From a virus (taxonomy: Duplodnaviria > Caudoviricetes): DNA of 64,000 nt. A program made the translations under genes and the position numbers. Below the pieces are notes generated by a model. That model was not told the origin of the DNA. It did no database searches and worked only from the letters and a program-made list of their open reading frames with translations. Positions 40,436 to 48,344 of the stretch are shown here, in pieces. The stretch spans positions 28,342 to 92,341 of IMG/VR virus record IMGVR_UViG_3300032219_001867. One strand, written 5' to 3'. Position 1 is the first letter of the stretch; each line of letters opens with the position of its first letter.

Positions 40436-40690
40436 CTACGCGTCGGGGAGAAGCTCGTCTTCCTCATCACAGTTGTGGTCAGAAAGCTCTGCCTCATATA
40501 AAATCGTCCCACAATCCTTGCAACGAAACAGCCTAACGTCGTCAAGAGCTTCGTGAAGAGAGTCCCCTTGAGAGTCATCATTGTAAACTTTTGGTTGCGC
40601 CAGTACTTCTGGGGGGAAAGGACCCCTCGGGGCATGGGCAGTCTTAGGAATAGCGTGCCCCTGGATGGCAAACTTACGGATAACAGGCAT
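40436..40690 (-). CDS. small Zn-finger protein
   Basis: FRCKDC...HNC. Confidence 0.55.
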   Translation of the reverse strand: MPVIRKFAIQGHAIPKTAHAPRGPFPPEVLAQPKVYNDDSQGDSLHEALDDVRLFRCKDCGTILYEAELSDHNCDEEDELLPDA

Positions 40691-40706
40691 ACCCTCATAT
40701 AAGCAC

Positions 40707-40729
40707 AAAGCCCTCCAAAAGGAGGGCTA
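40707..40729 (-). terminator. hairpin terminator
   Basis: agccctcc-tttt-ggagggct-tt downstream of the 26-aa minigene. Confidence 0.55.
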
Positions 40730-40747: not shown

Positions 40748-40828
40748 TTACTGGCAACTATCGCACTGAAGGAGGTCCATCGGGTCAATCGCAACGGAAT
40801 AACCGTTTACGTTGTCTGTTTCGTTCAT
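40748..40828 (-). CDS. 26-aa minigene resembling the RNR alpha C-terminal CxxC tail
   Basis: MNETDNVNGYSVAIDPMDLLQCDSCQ*; SD TAAGGAG upstream, hairpin downstream. Confidence 0.7.
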   Translation of the reverse strand: MNETDNVNGYSVAIDPMDLLQCDSCQ

Positions 40829-40843
40829 TTGATGGATATCTCC

Positions 40844-41104
40844 TTAGGGTGTGGGCTCCTCTGCGGGAGCAGTTGCCTCTTCAGCGGTCGCGTCAGAGGT
40901 GGTCTTTTTCTTTGATGATTTAGCTGTAGGAGCCTCGACATCGGGCTCAACGACAGAGGCTACATCCTGGGCTGGAATAAGTGTGTGCTTGTAGTCTGGA
41001 CGCATCAAAAATCCCGGAAGGTGCGCGTTGCAATACAAGATAGGAACCCCAGCACCTACGTAGGCAATATCTGCATCGGTTTCACAGTTAGAACATTTTT
41101 GCAT
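40844..41104 (-). CDS. small Zn-binding protein
   Basis: CSNC...C..H; SD AAAGGAG. Confidence 0.55.
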   Translation of the reverse strand: MQKCSNCETDADIAYVGAGVPILYCNAHLPGFLMRPDYKHTLIPAQDVASVVEPDVEAPTAKSSKKKTTSDATAEEATAPAEEPTP

Positions 41105-46040: not shown

Positions 46041-47027
46041 TTATTTTGTGACCGCAGATGCGTTGGACTCATACGAGGTATTGGTGGCCTCAAAGAAGTT
46101 AACCAGCTGCAAAGTGTCGTTGGCAGCAGCCATCCACTTGGCAGGATTGCTGACGTTGTAGTGCGAACCAAAGCCCAGCTCCTCAAGACGACGGTCTGCC
46201 AAGTACTTGGTGTACTGGCTGGCGTAGTCAGCGTTGAGCCCAAGAATGCCGTGGGGGAATTGGTCGCGGTTGTACTCAATTTCCATGTCAACGGCGTCGA
46301 GAATCATCTGCTTAATTTCATCCGCAAACTCAGGCGTAACAATGTCGGGGTTCTCTTCCAGAATGGTCACAACAAGGTTGACACCAAACTTCAAGTGCAG
46401 GGACTCGTCACGGACAATCCAGTCAACGAGTGAGCCAAAGTTGCGCAGCAGGTTGCGCTGACGGAACGACAGGGCCACCATGAAGCCACTGTAGAACCAG
46501 ATGCCCTCCATGATTACCGAGTAAGCCACCAAGTTGCGAACAAAATCCTGCTTGCCCTCTACGGTGTCAATGTCAAGCTTCTCTTCCGTCATGCGCGTGA
46601 TGAACTTGACCTCAAAGTCTTCTTTTGCCTTAATTGAGGGAACAGCCACGTGCTGGGCGTAAATTGCCTCACGGTCTACAGGGAAGGTCTCCAACACGTA
46701 CTCGAACGACATGCAGTGGTTGGCTTCTTCCCACATCTGCTTGGCGAGGTAGAGGTGGCACTCTGGGGCGCTCAAATAGGGGTAAACACCAAAGGCCAGA
46801 GCCTTGTTCACAATCAGCTCAGAAGGGTTAAAGAAGCTCATTAAGAAGGTAATGGCGTGCTGCTCGTCCTCAGACATGGTTTTGAAATCAGCGATGTCTT
46901 CGCCAAGCTGAATCTCATTCGGGAACCAAGTATTAGCTACTGCCTGGTCGTAAAGGTCCATCGCCCATTGATACTTGACAGGCTTCAAAAGCAGACCTTC
47001 TTGAATACCTTGACCTAGAATTCCCAT
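46041..47027 (-). CDS. nrdB: ribonucleotide reductase beta subunit, class Ic (R2c)-type signature
   Basis: ferritin-like ligands NPSE, EEANH, EGIWFYSGF, RDESLH; Phe at radical-Tyr site (HCMSF); C-terminal NFFE...SY. Confidence 0.9.
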   Translation of the reverse strand: MGILGQGIQEGLLLKPVKYQWAMDLYDQAVANTWFPNEIQLGEDIADFKTMSEDEQHAITFLMSFFNPSELIVNKALAFGVYPYLSAPECHLYLAKQMWEEANHCMSFEYVLETFPVDREAIYAQHVAVPSIKAKEDFEVKFITRMTEEKLDIDTVEGKQDFVRNLVAYSVIMEGIWFYSGFMVALSFRQRNLLRNFGSLVDWIVRDESLHLKFGVNLVVTILEENPDIVTPEFADEIKQMILDAVDMEIEYNRDQFPHGILGLNADYASQYTKYLADRRLEELGFGSHYNVSNPAKWMAAANDTLQLVNFFEATNTSYESNASAVTK

Positions 47028-47138
47028 TAAAATCTCTCCCTGTAGACATAGAAACCGCCCAAGAGCGGGCGGTTCCTCTAGTCTACCAAAAGCAGAAAGC
47101 CCCCCGGTCATAAACCGAGGGGCTTCCTTAATATTTTG

Positions 47139-48344
47139 CTACTTTTTGTTTCCCGCGTTGGCAATTGCCAAGGTTGTGAAGGGGACAGCAAGGTTTCCGA
47201 CCACGGCACTGGCAACAATGAGCCAGATTGGGGCCTGGGTACCACTTGCCATTACAGCAACACCAAGGTTGCTAATGACGAGAGCAGCAAGACCGTACAG
47301 GGCGTAAGCAAGCTTGCGGCCCTTAGGGTTTGGGATGAGGATGCCGAGAGCGTCGGTTCCTGCGGTATTAGCGTCGGTGGGAAGAGGGGCGATGGTGGTC
47401 ACGATAGGTTCCTTTACAGGGGTAGTTGGTTTTACGGGCTTTGGCTTTGTGGGGGTTGCTGGAGTAACTGGCTTTGCTGCCTGTTCCTTTGCAATTCTTT
47501 CAGATTCTGCTTTTGCGTCTGCTGCGGCTTTTGCATCTGCTGCTGCCTTATCTGCTGCTGCTTTTGCTTCTGCCTTGGCTTTTGCTTCCGCTTTAGCCTT
47601 GGCTTCGGCTTCGGCTGCTGCTTTGGCTGCTGCTGCTTTTGCGTTATTCATAGCGTTAATATCTTCGATTAGAGTTTGATAAAATCCAGCCCACGATAGT
47701 GGTCCAAGAACTCCATCAATCACACCGGGAGGAGCATAGTTGCCGTTTTTCTGACCATACTGTTGCATTCCACGGTAGGTCATCGGTCCTGGAACACCAT
47801 CAACGGCACCAGAATAAAGATAGTTTTGCTGAAGAAGTGTTTGGATTCCTCGCCAAGTTTTTGGTCCAGTAACGCCGTCTACTGCGCCGTCATAAAGTCC
47901 AAGGTTGGCTAGATTCTGTTGCACTCCACGAATAGAGTCTGTAGTAGAAGAAGAAGCACTTCCACCGCTCCCGCCTTGAACATAGTCAAGAGGGTTTACG
48001 CGGACTCCGTCTGGAGCAATTAGGTGCCAGTGTACGTGGGGTCCGGTGCTATCTCCGGTGTTACCCGTGTAGCCGATGACCTGACCCTGAGAGTAGTTGC
48101 CCTCAGCCACAAAAGAGTTTAGGTGCAGGTACTCGTCAACAAACCCGTTTCCGTGGTGGAAACGAATCCAATTACCGCGTCCGTTGCCGGTGTCACCGCG
48201 GTTCTCTAGGCGACCAGCAATGGGGGCAAGGATGGGGGTGTTCATGCCGGTTGCATAGTCAACTCCGCCGCGCGAGCCGCGCGCGAGGTGGTCGTTCCAC
48301 CCATCGCTGATGCGATACTGAGCAAGAGTGTTGATATAGCTCAT
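47139..48344 (-). CDS. endolysin: M23 peptidase + PG-binding repeats + C-terminal 2-TM segment
   Basis: GVDY...YLH...STGPHVHW; three DG..GP repeats; Ala/Lys/Pro linker; hydrophobic C-terminus. Confidence 0.85.
   Translation of the reverse strand: MSYINTLAQYRISDGWNDHLARGSRGGVDYATGMNTPILAPIAGRLENRGDTGNGRGNWIRFHHGNGFVDEYLHLNSFVAEGNYSQGQVIGYTGNTGDSTGPHVHWHLIAPDGVRVNPLDYVQGGSGGSASSSTTDSIRGVQQNLANLGLYDGAVDGVTGPKTWRGIQTLLQQNYLYSGAVDGVPGPMTYRGMQQYGQKNGNYAPPGVIDGVLGPLSWAGFYQTLIEDINAMNNAKAAAAKAAAEAEAKAKAEAKAKAEAKAAADKAAADAKAAADAKAESERIAKEQAAKPVTPATPTKPKPVKPTTPVKEPIVTTIAPLPTDANTAGTDALGILIPNPKGRKLAYALYGLAALVISNLGVAVMASGTQAPIWLIVASAVVGNLAVPFTTLAIANAGNKK

What the first reader, a model, noticed from the sequence alone, without database searches (positions are those of the whole stretch)
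40748..40828. Stand-alone minigene resembling only the redox-shuttle C-terminal tail of RNR alpha
Seen: a 26-aa ORF below the ORF-track cutoff, MNETDNVNGYSVAIDPMDLLQCDSCQ*, with a strong SD (TAAGGAG) and a downstream hairpin. Known: class I RNR alpha subunits end in a flexible acidic tail with a terminal Cys pair (often CxxC, e.g. ...CESC-like). The tail takes electrons from thioredoxin/glutaredoxin/NrdH and re-reduces the active site. From memory, actinobacterial alphas partnered with this beta type end ...DP-x-x-x-x-QCESCQ. Inference: this phage encodes an RNR beta (46041-47027) with no alpha in the window and may make the alpha tail as a free peptide. It could be a trans-acting redox shuttle that boosts host alpha turnover, or a decoy that hijacks host alpha/redoxins. 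A beta-plus-free-tail arrangement would, to my knowledge, be an undescribed way to manipulate host dNTP synthesis.
Basis: partly seen in the sequence, partly recalled or inferred. Interest (0 to 1): 0.88.

Follow-up and report, generated by a model that had tools for sequence, protein, structure and literature searches.

The report
Free-standing RNR alpha tail peptide gene
This phage carries a real 26-codon gene for the cysteine-pair "tail" that normally ends the large subunit of ribonucleotide reductase. Its Microbacteriaceae-type hosts also encode this tail as a separate mini-protein, and hundreds of phages and plasmids have picked it up, probably to keep host DNA-precursor synthesis running.

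Summary
The ORF at window 40828->40748 (minus strand) has a Shine-Dalgarno site and a terminator hairpin.

It belongs to a large, mostly unannotated family of 20-37-aa peptides that end in DPM[D/E]-x3-C-x2-C-Q-stop:
- 462 protein clusters at 50% identity;
- three cultured Clavibacter and Pontimonas phages;
- 19 Microbacteriaceae plasmids.

The same motif is the true C-terminus of full-length class I RNR alpha in three low-GC genomes, two of them labelled Saccharibacteria MAGs.

In Microbacteriaceae, alpha is tail-less: none of the 120 closest NrdA clusters has a Cys after the TTYYLH motif. The tail is a separate ORF whose start overlaps or abuts the nrdA stop, just upstream of nrdB. A second, stand-alone copy has its own promoter. 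That promoter carries the same tandem NrdR-box-like operator as nrdA, and the operator is found nowhere else in three of the five genomes searched.

The phage has a class Ic-type NrdB (about 80% identical to the host type) and the tail, but no alpha. Two other phage records with terminal repeats show the same combination. In 19 of 32 related phage nrdB loci the tail lies on the same strand, often abutting nrdB.

Best reading (about 0.7): a trans-acting redox tail for host NrdA. Its biochemical function is not tested. I rate it a new variant of a known kind, with high interest.

The parts
40748..40828 (-). Tail minigene: 26 codons plus TAA. The C-terminal half reads [Y]-x-V-[A/P]-x-DPMD-LL-Q-C-D-S-C-Q-stop.
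   Evidence: Searches give the ORF. Searches place it in the family; against relative L072 there are 6 synonymous changes (counted by codon), including an AGT->TCT Ser codon-family switch, in the conserved 16 C-terminal codons, and 3 non-synonymous codon changes, all in the N-terminal part; no differences in the ORF in three lake-metagenome strain contigs that differ in the flanks.
40840..40845 (-). Shine-Dalgarno AAGGAG, 11 nt upstream of the ATG; overlaps the stop of the upstream 86-aa ORF (40844-41104).
   Evidence: sequence. One search finds the same SD in the close relatives L104 and L072.
40699..40728 (-). Intrinsic-terminator-like hairpin (8-bp stem, 4-nt loop) plus a T-rich tract, 20 nt after the stop codon.
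   Evidence: The hairpin stem is unchanged in L104 and L072. Comparable hairpins follow the minigene in phiPsal1, CN1A, CMP1 and host locus L131.
46041..47027 (-). nrdB, class Ic-type RNR beta; the likely functional companion of the tail. It forms its own cassette, flanked by hairpins.
   Evidence: PF00268, 5e-75. NF007186; the closest solved structure is C. trachomatis R2c (1SYY), with Phe at the radical-Tyr position and Glu as first metal ligand; 78-86% identical to Microbacteriaceae NrdB; start codon and flanking hairpins.

Best explanation
The minigene encodes a free, acidic peptide of about 26 aa. It is the detached C-terminal redox tail of a class I (class Ic-type) RNR alpha subunit.

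In the host lineage (Microbacteriaceae and neighbours) alpha keeps the active-site cysteines but has lost the C-terminal Cys pair. That pair is supplied in trans by a peptide made from two genes:
- one translationally coupled to nrdA, inside the nrdA-tail-nrdB operon;
- one stand-alone gene under the same NrdR-type operator.

Inferred mechanism:
- The conserved [Y/F]-x-V-P-x-DPMD part docks on alpha.
- The C-x2-C pair reduces the active-site disulfide formed at each turnover.
- The oxidised peptide is re-reduced by a thioredoxin- or glutaredoxin-type system.

The phage copy most resembles the host stand-alone gene. It is expressed from phage signals, without the NrdR operator. Together with the phage's own beta it would keep host alpha turning over during infection, raising dNTP supply independently of host repression.

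Shown: homology, gene architecture, co-regulation signals, co-occurrence and purifying selection. Inferred: binding to alpha, disulfide exchange, and a positive effect on dNTP synthesis.
For: 1. Homology to a real alpha tail. The motif is the last 12 residues of full-length alphas (ATP-cone + lgN + lgC) in L136, L206 and L214.

2. Host alpha needs a tail it does not have.
- The active-site Cys and the Tyr dyad are invariant.
- None of the 120 closest NrdA clusters has any Cys after TTYYLH, and none is fused to a tail.
- Each of the five genomes has only one alpha.

3. Operon architecture. Across 45 split nrdA-tail-nrdB loci:
- the nrdA stop and the minigene start overlap in 27 loci (13 by 4 nt, ATGA or GTGA; 14 by 1 nt, TAATG or TGATG);
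- they lie within 10 nt of each other in 15 more.

4. Co-regulation of the stand-alone copy.
- About 49 loci carry a stand-alone copy. Most of these have a strong SD, and L131 shows its own terminator.
- A tandem NrdR-box-like operator lies upstream: 42 hits in 15 kb of upstream windows against 0 in about 500 kb elsewhere.
- The same box pair lies upstream of nrdA in 28 of 30 loci.
- Genome-wide, the composite operator occurs only at these two places in three of the five genomes. The other two have a single hit each, upstream of the stand-alone gene.
- NrdR is present in all 5 genomes.

5. Phage linkage.
- The tail abuts nrdB, or precedes a tail-less nrdA followed by nrdB, in other phages.
- 19 of 32 phage nrdB loci carry the tail on the same strand, and only 3 of the 32 have nrdA.
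- Phage genomes G310 (100% complete, with terminal repeats) and G306 (terminal repeats, rated 68% complete) have beta and tail but no alpha.
- Cultured phages phiPsal1, CN1A and CMP1 have the tail alone. Their host genera have the split system (L147, L154, L196, L293).

6. Selection. Residues that the search pattern did not impose are conserved among 74 distinct viral peptides: P at -2 in 71, V/I at -3 in 67, Y/F at -5 in 59 and G at -6 in 62. All three stop codons are used. The changes against L072 follow a synonymous-only pattern in the conserved half.

7. The phage peptides score higher with the host stand-alone profile than with the operon profile in 112 of 122 cases. The window peptide scores 55.4 against 50.1 bits.
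Against: - There is no direct evidence of translation, of binding to alpha or of redox activity.
- The complex predictor was unavailable, no RNA data exist for this phage, and a single-chain fold of a fused alpha was too poor to read.
- In this window the minigene lies 5.2 kb from nrdB, among small ORFs of unknown function.
- The window peptide has Ala where 71 of 74 viral peptides have Pro.
- The viral scan required the LL-Q-C-D-S-C-Q form, which biases the comparison in point 7 towards the stand-alone type.
- Plasmids carry the gene in a leading-region-like setting (ArdC - minigene - SSB). That could point to an establishment or anti-defence role that is not simply higher dNTP flux.
Confidence: 0.7

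Rival explanations
1. Decoy or inhibitor. The phage peptide occupies the tail-docking site on host alpha, or soaks up host redoxins. This would shut down or redirect host dNTP synthesis, for example in favour of complexes that contain the phage beta.
For: It is a free peptide with the same docking motif as the host tail. The window peptide carries a rare Pro->Ala change at -2. C-terminal RNR peptides are classic competitive inhibitors (own knowledge; that case concerns beta tails).
Against: - The redox Cys pair and the last 12 residues are identical to the host stand-alone peptide. An inhibitor would not need both cysteines to stay invariant.
- Phages that bring their own tail-less alpha plus beta also bring the peptide.
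- Phages need dNTPs.
Confidence: 0.1
2. The peptide serves beta rather than alpha. It would act as a small thiol or metal chaperone or reductant for assembly or maintenance of the class Ic Mn/Fe cofactor.
For: In phages the minigene often abuts nrdB and travels with beta in the absence of alpha. NCBI names some of these peptides 'subunit beta'.
Against: - In fused forms it is the end of ALPHA, at exactly the position of the known alpha redox tail.
- In hosts it is translationally coupled to nrdA.
- Tail-only phages and plasmids lack beta.
- The NCBI name looks like a propagated label, not a finding.
Confidence: 0.08
3. In mobile elements the peptide has an RNR-unrelated role. Examples are metal binding, or targeting another host protein or defence system, with the alpha-tail sequence co-opted for that purpose.
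For: The minigene sits in structural or lysis modules in many phages. On plasmid pCM2 it lies between ardC and ssb. Most carriers have no RNR gene nearby.
Against: The sequence is virtually identical to that of the host RNR-regulon peptide, and the minigene is repeatedly linked to nrdB or nrdA in phages. No other conserved partner gene was seen across contexts.
Confidence: 0.07
4. Untranslated remnant or chance ORF, for example a decayed 3' end of an nrdA gene.
For: The ORF is very short, and annotators did not call it in the cultured phage records.
Against: - No nrdA remnant lies upstream.
- The ORF has its own start codon and SD.
- The family comprises hundreds of independent members in unrelated contexts, all ending exactly at the stop after Q.
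- Changes in the conserved half are synonymous only.
Confidence: 0.03

Closest known systems
C-terminal redox tail of class I RNR alpha (for example E. coli NrdA Cys754/Cys759; the eukaryotic R1 C-x2-C tail)
   Same: Acidic and probably disordered, with a C-x2-C pair within the last 5 residues. PMC9669993 states that most class I alphas end in C-x2-C and use it to reduce the active site. The peptide is homologous to the fused tails of L136, L206 and L214. In yeast the tail of one protomer is reported to act on the neighbouring protomer (own knowledge: Zhang et al. 2007, PNAS).
   Different: Here the tail is not part of alpha. It is a separately translated peptide of about 25 aa with its own genes, one of them an independent transcription unit, and it moves on its own between phages, plasmids and hosts.
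Split class II RNR NrdJa/NrdJb
   Same: A natural split of an RNR catalytic subunit into two polypeptides (mentioned in PMC9669993).
   Different: NrdJb is a sizeable folded part of the enzyme, not a 25-aa tail. It belongs to a different RNR class, no mobile stand-alone copies are known, and there is no sequence similarity.
Dedicated RNR redoxins: NrdH, thioredoxin, glutaredoxin, phage T4 thioredoxin NrdC, and NrdB fused to a glutaredoxin domain (Facklamia ignava)
   Same: They supply reducing equivalents to RNR through a C-x2-C pair, and some are encoded by phages or sit inside nrd operons (own knowledge).
   Different: Those are thioredoxin-fold proteins of 75 aa or more that reduce the alpha tail. 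The peptide is too short to fold that way, matches no Pfam or NCBIfam family, and corresponds to the tail itself. This phage encodes no PF00085 or PF00462 protein.
Phage-encoded RNR genes as auxiliary metabolic genes (nrdA/nrdB, nrdJ, nrdD)
   Same: Phage genes that raise dNTP supply. This phage and its relatives carry a host-like nrdB.
   Different: Here phages carry only the two small 'consumable' parts (beta and tail), or the tail alone, and rely on host alpha. At about 80 nt, the gene lies below usual annotation cut-offs.

Membership tests
Class I RNR alpha C-terminal redox tail | Sequence homology to the extreme C-terminus of a bona fide class I alpha | tested here: met
   The fused alphas L136, L206 and L214 (PF03477 + PF00317 + PF02867) end in DPMD-x-LL-C-E-[S/G]-C-Q-stop. 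They align with the peptides in A1.
Class I RNR alpha C-terminal redox tail | Cys pair (usually C-x2-C) within the last few residues | tested here: met
   C22 and C25 of 26 are invariant in 77 of 77 aligned family members.
Class I RNR alpha C-terminal redox tail | Covalently part of the alpha polypeptide | tested here: not met
   The peptide is a free-standing ORF with its own start codon. No alpha is present in the 92-kb phage. Host alphas end before it at a stop codon.
Class I RNR alpha C-terminal redox tail | Cognate alpha has the active-site Cys pair and no other C-terminal Cys pair | tested here: met
   The Cys residues in SNCF, NLCTE and VCNL and the YY dyad are invariant. None of 120 NrdA clusters has a Cys after TTYYLH. 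There is one alpha per genome.
Class I RNR alpha C-terminal redox tail | Reduces the active-site disulfide and is re-reduced by a redoxin | not testable with these tools
   This needs enzyme assays. The complex predictor was unavailable.
NrdR regulon (host stand-alone copy) | Tandem NrdR boxes in the promoter, shared with the nrd operon, and NrdR present in the genome | tested here: met
   The box consensus was recalled from Rodionov and Gelfand 2005 (own knowledge); the enrichment and the sharing with nrdA were computed here. The phage copy itself has no such box.
Thioredoxin-fold redoxins (NrdH / Grx / Trx) | Thioredoxin fold of about 75 aa or more with a C-x2-C active site | tested here: not met
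   The peptide is 26 aa and has no Pfam or NCBIfam match.
RiPP precursor peptide | Adjacent maturation enzyme(s) and a leader/core organisation | tested here: not met
   The conserved neighbours are TerL and portal, lysis genes, nrdA/nrdB, or hadAB-like genes and murB. No modifying enzyme is among them.
Class Ic RNR beta (the window's nrdB) | Phe instead of the radical Tyr, and Glu instead of Asp as first metal ligand | tested here: met
   Alignment to C. trachomatis R2c (1SYY): the E-E-A-N-H-x3-F motif and F-F-N-P-S-E. The residue numbering is recalled from own knowledge.

The most novel reading that the evidence does not exclude
A diffusible peptide of about 25 aa acts as a separately encoded third component of a class Ic RNR. 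It is the alpha tail turned into a free redox shuttle, and the host regulates it through NrdR. Phages and conjugative plasmids of Microbacteriaceae spread this minigene as possibly the smallest auxiliary metabolic gene known. They would use it to relieve the re-reduction bottleneck of host alpha and to escape NrdR repression, with or without their own beta.
Probability: 0.55. Interest if true: 0.88.

Novelty: new variant of a known kind. Interest (0 to 1): 0.82.

Why it matters
The C-terminal Cys tail of class I RNR is textbook chemistry, but it has been treated as an inseparable part of alpha. Three things follow from this finding.

- **A natural test system.** A natural system in which the tail is a free, titratable peptide would let the re-reduction step be studied directly. 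Dose, docking motif and redoxin specificity could each be varied, and a simple synthetic peptide would serve as the tool.
- **A hidden auxiliary gene.** Mobile elements can tune an essential host enzyme with an 80-nt gene that annotation pipelines miss or mislabel. Auxiliary metabolic content of phages and plasmids is therefore probably under-counted.
- **A shift in what limits dNTP supply.** Phages that carry 'beta plus tail' or 'tail only' imply that host alpha is not the limiting part during infection. This changes how phage manipulation of dNTP supply is viewed.

Tried and rejected
- **DNA similarity to cultured phages.** Megablast and blastn of the 1-kb region against cultured phages gave no match.
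- **Neighbouring ORF.** The 86-aa upstream ORF has no relatives in viral contigs.
- **Queries too short.** The 26-aa peptide was too short for the search for related loci and the search for homologous proteins (one search was a parameter error).
- **Family libraries.** Pfam and NCBIfam hold no family for the peptide. The only hits were sub-threshold noise to DUF5816 and a zinc-finger model. PHROGs gave nothing useful for the neighbouring small ORFs.
- **Earlier findings of this scan.** Nothing to show.
- **Literature.** No paper contains the motif strings. Word searches, and reading of PMC9531940 and PMC9669993, found no description of a split class I tail. This is not proof that none exists.
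- **Fused tails in the protein collection.** A region search with the L206 tail returned only 3 close relatives, because the search is limited to shared words. A PDB search with the tail region gave only an irrelevant repeat protein.
- **AlphaFold2 of fused alpha L206.** With a 22-sequence alignment the mean pLDDT was 50 and the tail scored about 36. The model is too poor to interpret.
- **Sequencing runs.** No RNA holder is listed. Small shares in lake-water metagenomes are not used for habitat claims.
- **RiPP, zinc-ribbon and redoxin-fold readings.** Considered and rejected (see the membership tests).

Full report
**1. The observation**

The ORF is on the minus strand: ATG at 40828-40826 and TAA at 40750-40748. 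AAGGAG lies 11 nt upstream and overlaps the stop of an 86-aa ORF. A hairpin of 8 pairs followed by a T-rich tract sits 20 nt after the stop.

The window is part of a 92,341-bp IMG/VR virus record rated 96% complete. That record has an RNR beta (46041-47027, minus strand). It has no RNR alpha, no thioredoxin and no glutaredoxin. Only one tail-like ORF exists in the genome.

**2. It is a member of a large family**

- In every case a stop codon follows at once, and a start codon lies 20-37 codons upstream. There are 74 distinct peptides.
- Positions the pattern did not impose are conserved among those 74: P at -2 in 71, V/I at -3 in 67, Y/F at -5 in 59 and G at -6 in 62. All three stop codons are used.
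- A profile of 77 members found 462 protein clusters (50% identity level) at E <= 1e-3. Nearly all of the best 150 are 24-113 aa long with the match at their C-terminal end.
- tblastn found the gene, unannotated, in Pontimonas phage phiPsal1 and in Clavibacter phages CN1A and CMP1, just after the lysis genes.
- It also found the gene on 19 Clavibacter, Leifsonia and Gryllotalpicola plasmids. On pCM2 it lies between ardC and ssb.
- Close relatives of this phage (L104, L072) keep the gene. Against L072 the conserved 16 C-terminal codons carry only synonymous changes, including an AGT-to-TCT serine switch. The N-terminal part has three replacements.
- In lake metagenomes, strain contigs differ in the flanks but not in the ORF. 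Unrelated contigs match only the 39 nt that encode the motif.

**3. What it is homologous to**

Almost all were Microbacteriaceae, with a few Saccharibacteria and other Actinomycetota.

In three low-GC genomes (L136, L206, L214) the motif is the true end of a full-length class I alpha with ATP-cone, all-alpha and barrel domains.

In about 45 Microbacteriaceae-type loci the motif lies between nrdA and nrdB, in a short frame of its own:
- NrdA ends about 60 aa after the TTYYLH motif, with a conserved [R/K][R/K]-G-F-G element and a stop codon.
- The minigene start overlaps the nrdA stop in 27 of 45 loci and lies within 10 nt in 15 more, which indicates translational coupling.
- The 120 closest NrdA clusters, called independently by NCBI, JGI and ENA, are all about 820 aa long. 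None has a cysteine after TTYYLH and none is fused to a tail.
- The active-site cysteines and the tyrosine dyad are invariant.
- Five genomes each hold a single alpha.

So the only aerobic RNR alpha found in these bacteria lacks the tail that class I enzymes need for turnover (PMC9669993). The tail is made as a separate peptide.

**4. A second host copy in the same regulon**

About 49 other bacterial loci carry a stand-alone minigene. Most have a strong SD, and L131 shows its own terminator. The gene is followed by hadA/hadB-like dehydratase genes and murB.

- Upstream sits a pair of 16-bp palindromes 33 bp apart that resemble NrdR boxes. There were 42 matches at >= 12 of 16 positions in 15 kb of upstream windows, and none in about 500 kb elsewhere in the same loci.
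- The same pair precedes nrdA in 28 of 30 loci.
- In five whole genomes the composite operator occurs once or twice only. Where it occurs twice (three genomes), the two sites are upstream of nrdA and upstream of the stand-alone minigene.
- In Clavibacter the single hit led to a DPME variant of the minigene that the strict pattern had missed.
- All five genomes encode NrdR.
- Each genome has one operon copy and one stand-alone copy.

The motif is rare outside this group: it was found in 1 of 300 other Actinomycetes genomes sampled.

**5. The phage side**

The window's NrdB is 78-86% identical to NrdB of these bacteria. It is of the class Ic type: its closest solved relative is Chlamydia R2c, with Phe at the radical-tyrosine position and Glu as first ligand.

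Among 32 viral loci with related nrdB:
- 19 have the tail minigene on the same strand, often ending at the nrdB start;
- only 3 have nrdA, and there the order is tail, then tail-less nrdA, then nrdB.

Two phage records with terminal repeats have beta and tail but no alpha. One of them is a close relative of this phage and is rated 100% complete. Three cultured phages have the tail alone, and their host genera have the split system.

Phage peptides score higher against the stand-alone host profile than against the operon profile in 112 of 122 cases, although the viral scan pattern biases this. No NrdR-type box lies near the phage gene.

**6. Mechanism**

Shown: the homology, the tail-less alpha, the coupling, the shared operator, the linkage to nrdB in phages, and purifying selection.

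Inferred from the established chemistry of class I RNR:
- The peptide docks on alpha and its C-x2-C pair reduces the active-site disulfide.
- A redoxin then recycles the peptide.
- Extra peptide from a phage or plasmid, free of NrdR control, raises RNR turnover.

I give this 0.7. The rivals are a decoy (0.1), a helper for beta (0.08), an unrelated role in mobile elements (0.07) and a remnant (0.03).

**7. Novelty**

NCBI's pipeline already calls some of these peptides, but names them 'subunit beta'. I found no paper that describes a split class I tail or this motif. The chemistry is known. What appears new is the free peptide form, its dual host genes and its spread on phages and plasmids.

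**8. Limits**

- The NrdR-box consensus was recalled from memory.
- No expression, binding or activity data could be obtained.
- The complex predictor was unavailable, and the single-chain fold was uninformative.

Noticed in passing
L022:9946-13314 (viral contig IMGVR_UViG_3300010885_033832): The phage nrdA is tail-less and carries an in-frame insertion of about 930 nt near the catalytic-Cys region. The insertion has a sub-threshold Intein_splicing match (33.1 bits against a 35.8 cut-off), so it is a probable intein.
   Followed up: partly
L244-L248, L129 and others (NrdA C-termini); P0157-P0276: All tail-less NrdAs carry one or two [R/K][R/K]-G-F-G motifs in the stretch after TTYYLH and end just after the last one. 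Fused alphas have a single K-K-G-F-A-like motif before the long linker. Its function is unknown; it may be a docking or hinge element.
   Followed up: partly
P0070, P0085, P0032, P0013, P0065 (NCBI OJX69781.1, QNE48522.1, TXK20019.1, WP_402855974.1, HAA79333.1): NCBI records name these 26-34-aa tail peptides 'ribonucleotide-diphosphate reductase subunit beta'. This appears to be a mislabel.
   Followed up: partly
L294 (pCM2, NC_009479.1 3805-3966) and 18 other plasmids: The tail minigene is carried on Clavibacter, Leifsonia and Gryllotalpicola plasmids. On conjugative pCM2 it lies between an ArdC-like gene and ssb, a setting that resembles a leading region. In C. michiganensis subsp. insidiosus two extra copies lie on a 76-kb contig; the one examined (L147) lies next to an ArdC-like gene.
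   Followed up: partly
window 46990-47260: nrdB is preceded by two hairpins and an SD, so it looks like a self-contained inserted cassette. The longest ORF (start at 47111) over-extends the gene; the real start is at 47027.
   Followed up: partly
window 40844-41104(-) and 40436-40690(-): The two small ORFs that flank the minigene (86 and 84 aa) each have Cys-x2-Cys plus Cys/His motifs, which suggests small zinc-ribbon-like proteins. Neither matches a Pfam or PHROG family.
   Followed up: no
L134 (NZ_CP194644.1, labelled Streptomyces sp. L7, 4.27 Mb): It carries a stand-alone minigene locus and operator that match the Leifsonia loci almost exactly. The organism label may be wrong.
   Followed up: no
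L136, L139, L206, L214: Low-GC genomes, two of them (L136, L139) labelled Saccharibacteria, a group known as epibionts of Actinomycetota, have the same nrdA/nrdB type. The tail is fused in L136, L206 and L214, or sits on a 71-codon ORF in L139. They may mark the ancestral state or a transfer between partners.
   Followed up: no
L002-L120, about 50 loci: In one large group of viral contigs the minigene sits between the large terminase and portal genes, 6-40 nt after the terminase stop, with no recognisable SD. In another group it follows an M23 peptidase or the lysis genes, with an oppositely oriented HTH gene downstream.
   Followed up: partly
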